IMG/VR virus record: IMGVR_UViG_2617271072_000004
Coordinates: 1-64,000 of that record
Reading direction: 5' to 3' (one strand)
Origin: a virus
Lineage: Duplodnaviria; Heunggongvirae; Uroviricota; Caudoviricetes
Length of the DNA stretch: 64,000 nt
Shown here one piece after another: positions 59,632-60,908 of the stretch (the stretch's first letter is position 1; every line of letters begins with the position of its first letter). The notes below the pieces were generated by a model. It had not been told where the DNA came from. It did not search any database and worked only from the letters and a program-made list of their open reading frames with translations. The position numbers were made by a program, and so were the translations under genes.

Positions 59632-60606
59632 TTATCCGTTACCGCACGACGGTTTCTGCGTGATAAACGTCTCAAGCATCTTTTCCGCAATTGCCGACCA
59701 GGTGTGACACTGGACCTTTTCAGCATTTTTCACGCGATCAACGCGAGCAATAACCTCATCCCAATCAATCCGCGACTTGATAACCATATGGTTCACCAAA
59801 GCCAGGCGATCTGGCGGAAGGCAATCGGGAGGCGTTAATACCAACGCCCCGCACATTGCCGCCTCAAGTACAGTTAATCCAAGGCTTTCGGGATGCGTAA
59901 CGATAAAAACGTCACTCTTACGCAATTCAGCTGCAAATTCGGTTGCTGGCACCGGCGTCCGCCTGTATGGAGTTACCGAAATATTCCCCGGATCAATGGT
60001 AACCAATCCGTCATCAGTCAACGTTCTGGCCTCATACGGAACGGTCAGACGCTGAAGGTTCATAAGGATACTTAAGGAGTGATCAAAACCACTAACATCA
60101 AATGCAGCGTGGTCTACAAAAATACGCAGAACATCGTCCGTTTTGGTTTCCAGATGGAACAGCTCCTGATTCGCTGCCCATCCAACATGTTTGTTAAAGC
60201 GATTATGACGTTCTAACCGACCGGGATTATCCAGGTACCGCCAGGTATCATCGCGGACAGTAAAAGTAATATCGACTGGTGCCGAATCCAGCATAGAACC
60301 GTCATATACCTGGGCTACCCATCCAGAGAATCGGCGACACAGTTGCATGCCTATTTCCCTGGGTACCGTAGTAAAATACCTCAATCCTGGTGCCAAAATG
60401 GCCTTCGCAGAACATGCTGTCGCAGCAGTCAACACAGCTTCAACATAATCCTCGGGGCTTTCGACGCCAGGGGAATATGGACGATGGTATTGCAATGTTA
60501 CCCCAGCCTCACTAAAGGCGCAGGCCAGGTTGTAAGCCCACATTTCCGTATATGTTTTCACATCACTGATAGCTTCAAATTTTCGCCCAATGATCAGGAT
60601 GTTCAT
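59632..60606 (-). CDS. GT-B fold glycosyltransferase
   Basis: C-terminal DVFIVTHPESLGLTVLEAAMCGALVL E-x7-E motif. Confidence 0.7.
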   Translation of the reverse strand: MNILIIGRKFEAISDVKTYTEMWAYNLACAFSEAGVTLQYHRPYSPGVESPEDYVEAVLTAATACSAKAILAPGLRYFTTVPREIGMQLCRRFSGWVAQVYDGSMLDSAPVDITFTVRDDTWRYLDNPGRLERHNRFNKHVGWAANQELFHLETKTDDVLRIFVDHAAFDVSGFDHSLSILMNLQRLTVPYEARTLTDDGLVTIDPGNISVTPYRRTPVPATEFAAELRKSDVFIVTHPESLGLTVLEAAMCGALVLTPPDCLPPDRLALVNHMVIKSRIDWDEVIARVDRVKNAEKVQCHTWSAIAEKMLETFITQKPSCGNG

Positions 60607-60908
60607 TGCGTCTCCTTTTCCCTGACTAAAAGCTCATCCAGCTTGCTTTTATGTTTGAGCACATAGCCACATATTTTTCCTTTGGAGCTAATTTGCGGAA
60701 TGGAATAATATTCCGAAAATACTAATTCAGCCTTTTCTAAGACAAGTGAAACACCATAGCGCGCAACATGTCTGTCGATCATTTTTGCATCACTGAGATT
60801 ACCTTTAATTGATAGCCAGTCGTTGAGGTACATATGGTTGCGATTGGCTTTTTTCAGCATGTCGCTCAACCAATTTTTATTACGCTTAGTTAGTTTCCGT
60901 TGCATCAA
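60603..60908 (-). CDS. hypothetical AT-rich small protein
   Basis: 101-aa ORF overlapping both neighbours. Confidence 0.4.
   Translation of the reverse strand: MMQRKLTKRNKNWLSDMLKKANRNHMYLNDWLSIKGNLSDAKMIDRHVARYGVSLVLEKAELVFSEYYSIPQISSKGKICGYVLKHKSKLDELLVREKETQ

What the first reader, a model, noticed from the sequence alone, without database searches (positions are those of the whole stretch)
59632..60908. GT-B glycosyltransferase and an AT-rich small gene beside ban
The 324-aa protein has the E-x7-E signature (ESLGLTVLEAAMCGALVL) of retaining GT4-type glycosyltransferases. The adjacent 101-codon gene is visibly AT-rich. Target is unknown (host surface glycan or phage component).
Basis: partly seen in the sequence, partly recalled or inferred. 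Interest (0 to 1): 0.45.

Follow-up and report, generated by a model that had tools for sequence, protein, structure and literature searches.

The report
P1 Dbn glycosyltransferase plus orphan gene
The larger gene is the known but uncharacterised sugar-transferase Dbn of phage P1, which elsewhere sits next to three other P1 sugar-transferase-like genes, and the small AT-rich gene is an orphan that phage P1 itself has deleted.

Summary
The window is a P1-like phage-plasmid, 99% identical to P1 in the flanks.

**Dbn (59632-60606, minus strand).** This ORF is P1 Dbn (P7 Glt), already annotated as a "possible glycosyltransferase".
- The AlphaFold model (pLDDT 94.7) is a compact GT-B fold, and all top PDB neighbours are GT-B enzymes, mostly GT4.
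- The E-x7-E motif (E240..E248) is invariant across 64 homologues.
- Pfam Glycos_transf_1 scores just below its threshold.

**New link.** In lambdoid, P2-like, jumbo and other phages, Dbn homologues lie next to homologues of P1 PmgO, PmgP and PmgQ. Those three genes lie 6-8 kb away in this window. Dbn is therefore probably one step of a dispersed, non-essential glycan-building module. Its acceptor is still unknown.

**Small gene (60603-60905; ATG start, 100 aa; 38.9% GC).**
- It sits in a 288-bp segment that P1 and all 18 P1-like phage records lack.
- 12% of P1-like plasmids carry it.
- P1 keeps its first 11 nt fused to dbn, so P1 is the deletion allele.
- Diverged P1-like elements carry a homologue in the same slot after ban.
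- It is basic (pI 9.8), confidently modelled, and has no known fold relative or function.

Overall this is ordinary-to-moderate interest.

The parts
59632..60606 (-). dbn (P1 Dbn / P7 Glt): 324-aa cytoplasmic GT-B glycosyltransferase and last gene of the ban transcription unit. Its start ATG overlaps the stop of the small gene (ATGA).
   Evidence: ORF. 98% identical to P1 Dbn. AF2 pLDDT 94.7. Foldseek PDB hits are GT-B/GT4. Matches phrog_2518 at 2e-233.
59863..59889 (-). Codons for the E-x7-E motif ESLGLTVLE (residues 240-248) in the C-terminal Rossmann domain.
   Evidence: Translation. H238, E240, S241, G243, E248 and G253 are invariant in 64 homologues. This is the only region aligned to GT4 structures by sequence.
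60603..60905 (-). Orphan small gene: 100 aa, pI 9.8, 38.9% GC. It is translationally coupled to ban (TGATG) and to dbn (ATGA). Predicted structure is a helical hairpin, a 4-stranded sheet and a C-terminal helix.
60607..60894 (.). 288-bp segment present here but replaced by 13 bp in P1. This is the presence/absence polymorphism that contains almost the whole small gene.
   Evidence: blastn against P1. Absent from all 18 P1-like phage records. Present in 52 of 440 PLSDB P1-like plasmids and in 80 of 460 carrier E. coli genomes. No terminal repeats or target duplication.
60905..62276 (-). ban (DnaB-type replicative helicase). Here it is split into 150-aa and 326-aa ORFs by one extra base in an A/T run at 61826-61831.
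   Evidence: ban is intact in 17 other carriers of the small gene and in NZ_CP010173.1.
59586..59610 (.). Hairpin between the convergent genes 5 and dbn (10-11 bp stem, 5-nt loop). Likely a bidirectional terminator that ends the ban-orf-dbn unit.
   Evidence: Sequence. RNA fold -17.6 kcal/mol, z -3.9, 0 of 200 shuffles as good.
53033..53693 (-). pmgO (PHROG name 'alpha-2,3-sialyltransferase'; weak MptE-like match). Homologues lie next to Dbn homologues in other phages. A frameshift at ~53575 is present in this window.
   Evidence: tblastn. phrog_4603 at 4e-74. Pfam PF01973 23.4 bits, below threshold. Homopolymer indel.
52510..53132 (-). pmgP, a paralogue of pmgO. Homologues lie next to Dbn homologues in other phages. 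A frameshift at ~52630 is present in this window.
   Evidence: phrog_2111 at 3e-132, with a cross-hit to phrog_4603. Indel.
51135..51836 (-). pmgQ (RefSeq and PHROG name: glycosyltransferase). Homologues directly abut Dbn homologues in at least 7 independent phage contexts.
   Evidence: phrog_1962 at 2e-127. All 22 phage records with a Dbn homologue also have a PmgQ homologue.

Best explanation
Shown here:
- The 324-aa ORF is Dbn of a P1-like phage-plasmid. It is a soluble, compact GT-B glycosyltransferase with a family-invariant E-x7-E motif.
- It is the last gene of the ban unit, which ends at a hairpin shared with the convergent tail gene 5.

Inferred from gene neighbourhood:
- Dbn does not act alone. 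It belongs to one glycan-building module with PmgO and PmgP (a sialyl-/Kdo-transferase-like pair) and PmgQ (glycosyltransferase).
- In a lambdoid phage, a P2-like prophage and other phages these genes are contiguous and overlapping.
- In P1 and in this window the module is split: pmgO-pmgP-ppp-pmgQ on one side of the tail/baseplate genes 26-25-7-24-6-5 and dbn on the other.

Mechanism (inferred): Dbn takes a nucleotide-sugar donor in its C-terminal domain, where the EX7E glutamates contact the sugar-nucleotide, and adds one sugar to a glycan started or extended by PmgO/P/Q.

Acceptor (the least certain step): because the module sits in late or repressor-controlled operons and also occurs in strictly lytic jumbo phages, I favour a lytic-cycle target, most likely phage virion proteins, over lysogenic conversion of LPS.

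Small gene:
- It is an unrelated, standalone accessory gene.
- It is the ancestral occupant of the slot just 3' of ban in P1-like elements.
- It was deleted in the lineage leading to P1, leaving its start codon and 11 nt fused in frame to dbn. These are the 8 extra N-terminal codons MQWNEEKP of annotated P1 Dbn.
- Its conserved basic helical hairpin (K4, R8, N9, K10, R45, R49) suggests it binds a nucleic acid or an acidic host protein, as a dispensable early or host-interaction factor.
For: Identity and fold:
- blastn and annotation identify the gene as P1 dbn.
- AF2 model has pLDDT 94.7.
- Foldseek best hits are GT-B, many GT4, at E 2e-9 to 1e-5 and TMq 0.44-0.67 over the top 50.
- Invariant residues H238, E240, S241, G243, E248, G253.

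Module:
- Contiguous pmgO-pmgP-dbn-pmgQ homologues in L037/L038 (P2-like, overlapping the portal gene stop).
- pmgO-pmgP-x-dbn-pmgQ in L043 (lambdoid, upstream of the terminase).
- dbn-pmgO-pmgP with pmgQ adjacent in L039.
- dbn-pmgQ adjacency in three large-phage contigs and in phages EP_H11 and IME392.
- 22 of 22 phage records with Dbn also have PmgQ.
- The partners map to window 51135-53693.
- PHROG names are sialyltransferase and glycosyltransferase.

Timing:
- The P1 annotation places late promoter LPpmgL and C1 operators O26 and Oppp on the pmgL-pmgQ operon. Oppp is conserved here.
- Homologues occur in jumbo lytic phages.

Dispensability:
- dbn, pmgO, pmgP and pmgQ are all non-essential by CRISPRi (PMC10695390).
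- That paper's table also marks dbn, pmgO, pmgP and pmgQ non-essential citing its reference 73, which I take to be, but did not verify as, the Gonzales knockout study; that study reports only that 24 of 29 single-gene knockouts had no plaquing or antirestriction defect, with the gene list in a supplementary table I did not read (PMC9024508).

Small gene:
- Indel mapping.
- Relic ATGCAAtGGAA in P1 at the same 1-nt overlap with the ban stop.
- Homologues of 34-41% identity directly after ban in Cronobacter JK004, a Pantoea-like contig and L024, where Ban is 76-82% identical.
- Family alignment and model.
- No conserved neighbour across lineages.
Against: - No biochemical data exist for Dbn or PmgO/P/Q.
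- Dbn scores below the Pfam gathering threshold. It appears to lack the usual N-terminal glycine-rich loop and the GR...K motif of classical GT4 enzymes (read from the sequence; my own knowledge of GT4).
- The glycosyltransferase identity of PmgO/P rests on sub-threshold Pfam hits and database names.
- Neither 'glycos' nor dbn, pmgO, pmgP or pmgQ occurs in the main text of the published P1 virion proteome paper, so P1 virion glycosylation has not been reported there.
- One bacterial homologue lies in a capsule-type cluster. The P2-like copy sits in a known accessory hotspot beside a KAP NTPase. Both fit an envelope-glycan target.
- dbn and pmgO-Q are in different operons in P1.
- JK004 keeps pmgQ but lacks dbn, so Dbn is optional to the module.
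- For the small protein there is no functional evidence at all. The binding inference comes only from charge and conservation.
Confidence: 0.55

Rival explanations
1. Dbn, with PmgO/P/Q, modifies a host envelope glycan at the cytoplasmic face. The likely substrate would be the LPS inner or outer core, which is the P1 and P2 receptor, or else ECA or capsule. The effect would be to change the receptor, giving superinfection exclusion, protection of progeny from re-adsorption, or serum/phage resistance of the lysogen.
For: - A 34%-identical bacterial homologue lies in a capsule-type cluster with an ABC transporter, a Poly_export protein and an MptE-like/WaaZ_KDO_III (faint) neighbour.
- PmgO/P-like partners weakly match MptE-like, which I recall (own knowledge, not checked here) as a family that includes CMP-sugar transferases.
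- The P2-like copy lies in the accessory hotspot after the portal gene, next to a KAP NTPase.
- The P1 annotation predicts sigma-70 promoters P1dbn and P2dbn inside ban, which could allow expression in lysogens.
- Lysogenic conversion by phage glycosyltransferases is well established (own knowledge).
Against: - The module sits in late or C1-repressed operons in P1.
- It is co-oriented with terminase and portal genes in the P2-like and lambdoid copies.
- It occurs in strictly lytic jumbo phages and a pelagiphage, where lysogenic conversion is impossible.
- The promoter scan finds no more sites than chance.
- No flippase or membrane component is present.
Confidence: 0.25
2. Dbn glycosylates phage DNA, as a base hypermodification that evades restriction. 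This would resemble the GT-B DNA glycosyltransferases of T-even phages and of phage HY126.
For: - A phage HY126 glycosyltransferase with UDP (9ir0) is the 5th-best structural neighbour; HY126 is a phage with arabinosylated 5-hydroxycytosine DNA (PMC13326640), so I take 9ir0 to be its DNA arabinosyltransferase, which the paper passages I read do not state.
- In large phages the Dbn homologue lies near RecA-like and DEAD-helicase genes.
- In P1 it is co-transcribed with a replication gene.
Against: - Similarity to 9ir0 is only at fold level (13% identity, TMq 0.58), no better than to dozens of non-DNA GT4 enzymes.
- No hydroxymethylase/hydroxylase or other base-activating gene was seen in the Pfam lists of the neighbours fetched; the rest of the P1 genome was not searched for one, and that P1 lacks one is my own recollection.
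- The knockout study found no change in antirestriction activity in any of its 24 viable P1 mutants (PMC9024508); whether dbn was among them rests on the unverified reference 73 of PMC10695390.
- P1 DNA is cut and used routinely as ordinary DNA (own knowledge).
- Neighbours such as a polysaccharide pyruvyl-transferase point to a glycan, not to DNA.
Confidence: 0.06
3. The small protein is a Ban-specific accessory factor, for example a loader, a regulator or an inhibitor of host DnaB/DnaC. This would explain why it is translationally coupled to ban in several P1-like lineages.
For: - It lies immediately 3' of ban with a 1-nt TGATG overlap in E. coli, Cronobacter, Pantoea-like and L024 elements.
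- It has an N-terminal helical hairpin with invariant residues. Helicase loaders commonly grip DnaB with a helical hairpin (own knowledge of DnaC, lambda P and DciA).
Against: - P1 and about 88% of P1-like plasmids lack it, while their Ban is 99.1-99.6% identical to that of carriers. Ban therefore neither needs it nor co-varies with it.
- In Avunavirus, Jesfedecavirus and other phage contigs the homologue is not next to any helicase.
- No sequence or fold similarity to any loader.
- The linkage to ban is explained by vertical inheritance of the slot.
Confidence: 0.12
4. The small ORF is not a functional gene but AT-rich junk or a decaying remnant.
For: - It is dispensable: P1 lacks it.
- It has low GC.
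- It has no known domain.
Against: - It is intact and 98-100% conserved in 17 viral contigs and 52 plasmids.
- Full-length homologues at 28-47% identity in at least 5 phage groups share 10 invariant residues.
- The AF2 model is confident from only 18 sequences (pLDDT 89.5).
- Both start and stop overlaps with the flanking genes are preserved.
Confidence: 0.03

Closest known systems
Bacteriophage P1 Dbn (YP_006544) / P7 Glt; PHROG 2518
   Same: 98% amino-acid identity. Same position between ban and the convergent gene 5, and same terminator context. Already annotated as 'function unknown, possible glycosyltransferase'. Non-essential (PMC10695390).
   Different: P1's annotated protein has 8 extra N-terminal residues (MQWNEEKP). 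These are the relic of the deleted small gene. Here Dbn starts at the family-conserved Met, preceded by AAGGAG.
CAZy GT4-type retaining GT-B glycosyltransferases (PimA/PimB', BshA, GlgM, sucrose-phosphate synthase, WaaG)
   Same: Two-Rossmann GT-B fold with a C-terminal crossing helix. E-x7-E motif in the C-terminal domain. Best structural neighbours. NCBI names the cluster 'glycosyltransferase family 4 protein'.
   Different: Only 324 aa, against about 350-480. Pfam PF00534 scores below its gathering cut-off. The N-terminal domain has no recognisable sequence similarity. The usual glycine-rich loop and GR..K donor-phosphate motif are not evident; instead D165-H166 and R216 are conserved. Donor, acceptor and stereochemistry are untested.
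P1 PmgO / PmgP / PmgQ (PHROGs 4603, 2111, 1962), the 'putative morphogenetic' genes
   Same: They co-occur with, and in other phages directly abut, Dbn homologues. All are non-essential accessory genes of P1.
   Different: They are different folds and families from Dbn. In P1 they are in a separate operon 6-8 kb away. PmgQ has a wider distribution than Dbn: 9 phage records have PmgQ without Dbn.
Mycobacteriophage virion-glycosylation operons (glycosyltransferases encoded beside structural genes; Freeman et al. 2023, own knowledge; mentioned in PMC11256854)
   Same: Several phage-encoded cytoplasmic glycosyltransferases next to or within late structural operons. They are dispensable for plaque formation.
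   Different: No sequence relationship was tested. P1 virion glycosylation has never been shown. The hosts are Gram-negative.
PHROG 12809 (function unknown): small early proteins of Avunavirus, Jesfedecavirus (T5-like vibriophages) and Cronobacter phage JK004
   Same: The small protein matches the profile end to end at E 1.3e-46. It has the same length, basic N-terminus and predicted fold (TM 0.85 to the Vibrio phage phi 3 model).
   Different: Only 28-47% identical to any non-E. coli member. AT-rich relative to its genome. Nothing is known about any member.

Membership tests
GT-B fold glycosyltransferase superfamily | Two Rossmann-like beta/alpha/beta domains facing each other, with a C-terminal helix that crosses back to the N-domain | tested here: met
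   AF2 model has pLDDT 94.7 and pTM 0.90, with strand/helix alternation in residues 1-140 and 160-300 plus helix 303-314. 86 PDB matches at E<=1e-3; the top 50 are essentially all GT-B proteins, nearly all glycosyltransferases.
GT4-type (Pfam Glycos_transf_1, PF00534) | E-x7-E motif in the C-terminal domain | tested here: met
   E240-x7-E248 is the only such motif. It is invariant in 64 homologues and aligns to the same motif in 8xsg and 3c4q.
GT4-type (Pfam Glycos_transf_1, PF00534) | Score at or above the curated Pfam gathering threshold | tested here: not met
   25.1 bits against a cut-off of 26.4, covering only residues 221-307. Best E-value among 64 family members is 1.2e-5.
GT4-type (CAZy) | Retaining mechanism with a nucleotide-sugar donor, and listing in CAZy | not testable with these tools
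   No CAZy database or enzymology is available here. NCBI's name 'glycosyltransferase family 4 protein' is an automated label.
P1 Dbn orthologue group (PHROG 2518) | Full-length high identity and a position between ban and gene 5 | tested here: met
   98% identity over 324 aa. phrog_2518 at 2.4e-233. Flanks are 99% identical to P1.
PmgO-PmgP-Dbn-PmgQ phage glycan module (proposed here) | Dbn homologue contiguous with, or co-occurring with, PmgQ and PmgO/P homologues in unrelated phages | tested here: met
   Contiguous in L037/38, L039, L043, L031-36, EP_H11 and IME392. 22 of 22 Dbn-positive phage records are PmgQ-positive. All three partners are present in the window.
PHROG 12809 (small protein) | End-to-end profile match | tested here: met
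   E 1.3e-46, residues 1-100 against profile positions 1-104 of 106.
Replicative-helicase loaders (DnaC, lambda P, DciA, P2 B) | Sequence or fold similarity to a known loader | tested here: not met
Known anti-phage defence proteins (PADLOC) | Match to a defence-system HMM | tested here: not met
   0 families for either protein.
Transposable element / MITE as origin of the 288-bp segment | Terminal inverted repeats and target-site duplication | tested here: not met
   None found at 60607/60894. The boundaries are gene boundaries, and P1 keeps remnants of both ends.

The most novel reading that the evidence does not exclude
Phage P1, the classic transducing phage, encodes a complete four-enzyme glycosylation pathway (PmgO, PmgP, Dbn, PmgQ). 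The module is shared with lambdoid, P2-like and jumbo phages. It would decorate the phage's own virion proteins, or another lytic-cycle target, with a short acidic glycan. That would be the first virion-glycosylation system in a Gram-negative model phage and would explain four long-standing 'putative morphogenetic' or unknown genes. Separately, the 100-aa protein would be the founder of a new-fold family of phage host-interaction proteins.
Probability: 0.3. Interest if true: 0.65.

Novelty: already known. Interest (0 to 1): 0.35.

Why it matters
P1 is a workhorse of E. coli genetics, and P1-like phage-plasmids are widespread carriers of resistance genes. They occur in 8.5% of complete E. coli genomes. 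About a fifth of P1 genes still have no function.

Linking dbn to pmgO, pmgP and pmgQ turns four orphan annotations into one testable pathway. If that pathway glycosylates virions or the LPS receptor, it would affect host range, immune recognition and transduction efficiency.

The small gene matters less. It documents a simple deletion that explains an odd N-terminal extension in the reference P1 annotation. It also marks the region after ban as an accessory slot, and it adds one more confidently folded protein family of unknown function.

Tried and rejected
Searches that gave nothing useful:
- PADLOC and NCBIfam gave nothing for either protein.
- The exhaustive HMMER search of 1.84 billion representatives found only 4 true relatives. 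A fifth hit, P0082, is a repeat-protein artefact.
- No Rfam element other than the tRNA.
- No literature links dbn with pmgO/P/Q or mentions the small gene.

Tools or sources unavailable:
- The AFDB50 fold library was unavailable.
- Lobocka et al. 2004 is not held.

Tests that were negative:
- A search for a conserved partner gene of the small protein across lineages found none, so a two-gene module (for example toxin-antitoxin) was rejected.
- Promoter and terminator consensus scans were no better than shuffles. The gp5/dbn hairpin had to be found by eye and folded separately.
- The 288-bp segment was tested as a mobile element and has no terminal repeats.
- The C1 operator consensus search did not find Op72 near ban. 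In P1 the operator is not annotated within 1.8 kb upstream of ban either, so C1 control of ban rests on literature knowledge.
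Full report
**What the window is**

The region is a P1-like phage-plasmid. 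Window 56401-60606 and 60895-62876 align to phage P1 (NC_005856) at 99.4% and 98.6%. The closest record found is E. coli H8 plasmid A (NZ_CP010173.1, IncY), 99.7% over 5.9 kb.

Gene order on the minus strand is tRNA(CAT), ban, small ORF, dbn. It is followed by the convergent tail/baseplate genes 5, 6, 24, 7, 25 and 26 on the plus strand.

**Check of the observation**

- Both ORFs exist.
- The 324-aa protein carries ESLGLTVLE at residues 240-248 (nt 59863-59889). This is its only E-x7-E.
- The small ORF has 38.9% GC, against 48-49% for its neighbours and the whole window.
- The small ORF's start is the ATG at 60905, not the TTG at 60908. RefSeq annotates the identical gene as 303 nt. All homologues begin M-(K/Q)-x-K-L. 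The ATG overlaps the ban stop as TGATG, and its own stop overlaps the dbn start as ATGA.

**Dbn: identity and fold**

The ORF is P1 dbn ('downstream of ban'), annotated 'function unknown, possible glycosyltransferase'. P7 calls it Glt, and RCS47 calls it a GT family 4 protein.

Sequence methods barely recognise it:
- Pfam Glycos_transf_1 scores 25.1 bits, under the 26.4 cut-off, and covers only residues 221-307.
- A family profile hits PDB glycosyltransferases only around the EX7E motif.
- Only 21 of 64 homologues reach E<=0.01 against PF00534.

Structure settles the question:
- With a 64-sequence alignment, AlphaFold2 gives pLDDT 94.7 and pTM 0.90. The model has two Rossmann-like domains and a C-terminal crossing helix.
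- Foldseek against the PDB returns 86 hits at E<=1e-3. The top 50 are essentially all GT-B proteins, nearly all glycosyltransferases and many of them GT4: sucrose-phosphate synthase, GlgM, BshA, PimB', PimA, and a phage HY126 glycosyltransferase.
- H238, E240, S241, G243, E248 and G253 are invariant in the family. So are D102, W143, A144 and D175.

Strict GT4 membership is only partly met (see the membership table).

**Dbn: context and partners (the main new result)**

Distant homologues (about 32% identity) lie in large phage contigs. There they sit inside clusters that encode a cytidylyltransferase/cupin protein, a polysaccharide pyruvyl-transferase, GT8/GT47-like proteins and methyltransferases. 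One 34% homologue is in a bacterial capsule-type cluster.

The closest non-P1 homologues (36-58% identity) mostly lie in tight modules; the 58%-identical Citrobacter copy (L042) has unrelated neighbours:
- a P2-like prophage: 196 aa, 176 aa, Dbn-like, 221 aa, starting at the stop of the portal gene;
- a lambdoid phage: 179, 199, 189, Dbn-like, 223 aa, just upstream of the terminase;
- another phage: Dbn-like, 200, 199 aa.

The flanking proteins are homologous between these phages. When searched against the window they hit three P1 genes 6-8 kb from dbn:

| P1 gene | Window coordinates |
|---|---|
| pmgO | 53033-53693 |
| pmgP | 52510-53132 |
| pmgQ | 51135-51836 |

PHROG and RefSeq call PmgO 'alpha-2,3-sialyltransferase' and PmgQ 'glycosyltransferase'. 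PmgP is a PmgO paralogue. Pfam gives only sub-threshold MptE-like hits.

Across 50,697 phage records, all 22 with a Dbn homologue also have a PmgQ homologue. In EP_H11 and IME392 the two genes abut. Nine records have PmgQ without Dbn, including the P1-like Cronobacter phage JK004. Counting independent lineages, Dbn is linked to PmgQ and/or PmgO/P in at least seven contexts.

I conclude that Dbn is one transferase of a PmgO/PmgP/Dbn/PmgQ glycan-building module. In P1 this module is split around the tail/baseplate genes.

**Dbn: what the module acts on (inferred)**

Evidence from P1 and related phages:
- dbn, pmgO, pmgP, ppp and pmgQ are all non-essential by CRISPRi (PMC10695390).
- In the knockout study, 24 of 29 single-gene knockouts had no plaquing or antirestriction defect (PMC9024508). 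The PMC10695390 table marks dbn and pmgO/P/Q non-essential citing its reference 73, which I take to be this study but did not verify; the gene list is in a supplementary table I did not read.
- None of dbn, pmgO, pmgP or pmgQ is named in the main text, tables included, of the virion proteome paper.
- The P1 annotation places a late promoter (LPpmgL) and C1 operators (O26, Oppp) on the pmgL-pmgQ operon. Oppp is conserved here, 16 of 17 positions.
- dbn follows ban with no terminator in between, and the unit ends at a strong hairpin shared with gene 5.
- In the P2-like and lambdoid copies the module is co-oriented with late genes.
- Homologues occur in strictly lytic jumbo phages.

These facts favour a lytic-cycle function. 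Virion-protein glycosylation is my leading guess, with the mycobacteriophage systems as precedent (own knowledge). This step is not shown.

Modification of the LPS core or another envelope glycan is a serious rival. It is supported by the capsule-cluster homologue, the P2 accessory-hotspot position, and the fact that LPS core is the P1/P2 receptor. DNA glycosylation is unlikely.

**The small gene: a deletion polymorphism**

- Window 60607-60894 (288 bp) replaces 13 bp of P1.
- The segment is absent from all 18 P1-like phage records, even in a sensitive search.
- It is present, mostly 100% identical, in 52 of 440 PLSDB plasmids that carry the ban-dbn junction, in 80 of 460 carrier E. coli genomes, and in 17 IMG/VR contigs.
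- There are no terminal repeats.

P1 reads TAATGCAATGGAATGAGGAAAAGCCGATGAAC at the junction. ATGCAAtGGAA is the first 11 nt of the small gene (ATGCAAcGGAA here), at the same 1-nt overlap with the ban stop. The following TGAGGAAAAG resembles the gene's 3' end (TCAGGGAAAAG).

So the 8 extra N-terminal codons of annotated P1 Dbn (MQWNEEKP) are a fossil of this gene, and P1 is the deletion allele.

Consistent with this, more distant P1-like elements carry a 34-41%-identical homologue in exactly this slot with the same TGATG overlap. These are Cronobacter phage JK004, a Pantoea-like contig, and L024; the Salmonella homologues P0091 and P0095 lie on 93-97 kb contigs whose gene context I did not examine. 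Their Ban is 76-82% and their gp5 60-78% identical to P1. They lack dbn and have other small ORFs between this gene and gene 5. The ban-to-gene-5 interval is therefore a variable accessory slot.

**The small gene: what it may do**

- The family is tiny: about 20 clusters among 5.8 billion proteins, and 4 distant representatives among 1.84 billion.
- It is phage-restricted. Outside P1-like elements it sits among small early genes of Avunavirus and T5-like vibriophages, and in a contig next to DNA methyltransferases. No helicase is nearby, and no neighbour is conserved across lineages.
- It is basic (pI 9.8).
- Ten residues are invariant (M1, K4, L5, R8, N9, K10, L17, M42, R45, R49). They lie on the two helices of a predicted N-terminal hairpin, which is followed by a small sheet and a C-terminal helix (pLDDT 89.5).
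- No solved or predicted structure outside the family resembles it.

I infer a dispensable, fast-evolving factor that binds a nucleic acid or a host protein. A Ban-specific role is unlikely, because Ban is 99.1-99.6% identical in carriers and non-carriers.

**Verdict**

However, the glycosyltransferase is an already-annotated P1 gene, and the small gene is an already-deposited hypothetical protein.

Three things are added here:
- structural confirmation of the GT-B fold;
- the link of Dbn to PmgO/P/Q as one module;
- the deletion-relic explanation of the P1 junction.

Interest is modest unless the module's target proves to be the virion.

Noticed in passing
window 61826-61831 (ban), 53575 (pmgO), 52630 (pmgP), 56160 and 56214 (gene 25), 49523, 51084: Relative to P1, nearly all indels are +/-1 base (one is +3) in A/T homopolymer runs. 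They split ban, pmgO, pmgP and tail gene 25 into two ORFs each. Other carriers and the closest plasmid have an intact ban. This is probably long-read homopolymer error, or else a decaying element.
   Followed up: partly
L001 (P1 NC_005856) 4208-4231; window 60895-60905: The annotated 332-aa P1 Dbn starts 8 codons upstream of the family-conserved Met. Those codons (MQWNEEKP) are the fused remnant of the deleted small gene, so the reference annotation probably over-extends Dbn, or the relic ATG now couples dbn translation to ban.
   Followed up: yes
window 62877-63466: The tciA/TerB-family region does not align to P1 but matches E. coli H8 plasmid A. This corresponds to 'variable region G' (tciA-tciC) described for P1-like phage-plasmids in PMC9603915.
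   Followed up: partly
window, 11 sites (e.g. 48974, 51067, 51117, 54742; also ~53838-53854): C1-repressor operator-like 17-mers (ATTGCTCTAATAAATTT, up to 3 mismatches) occur 11 times against 0.34 expected. The Oppp operator upstream of pmgN-pmgQ is conserved at 16 of 17 positions but falls outside the 3-mismatch search. No operator lies directly upstream of ban inside the window.
   Followed up: partly
L002 (Cronobacter phage JK004) 4001-5559; L023 5001-7280: In diverged P1-like elements the interval between ban and gene 5 holds different cargo: four small ORFs in JK004, and five ORFs plus a UmuD/LexA-like S24 peptidase in the Pantoea-like contig. dbn is absent. The interval is therefore an accessory-gene slot that is not listed among the eight published variable regions.
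   Followed up: partly
L037 7644-11708: In the P2-like prophage, the pmgO-pmgP-dbn-pmgQ module sits after the portal gene and next to a 1354-aa KAP-family NTPase on the opposite strand. As far as I recall, this position is a known hotspot for anti-phage systems.
   Followed up: no
P0091 (Salmonella homologue of the small protein), alignment A3 columns 45-60: One Salmonella variant has a 16-residue internal insertion that repeats the neighbouring 'RM..RH..RF' motif. This is a tandem duplication inside helix 2.
   Followed up: no
window 62557-62632: tRNA with a CAT anticodon (P1 trnI, annotated as tRNA-Ile2 in P1) lies upstream of ban, as in P1.
   Followed up: yes
L031, L033, L035 (large phage contigs of 96-281 kb): Dbn/PmgQ homologues are embedded in larger phage-encoded glycan clusters. 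These include a nucleotide-sugar synthesis gene (CTP_transf_like + cupin), a polysaccharide pyruvyl-transferase, GT8/GT47-like genes and methyltransferases, beside RecA-like and DEAD-helicase genes. They look like uncharacterised phage glycosylation islands.
   Followed up: partly
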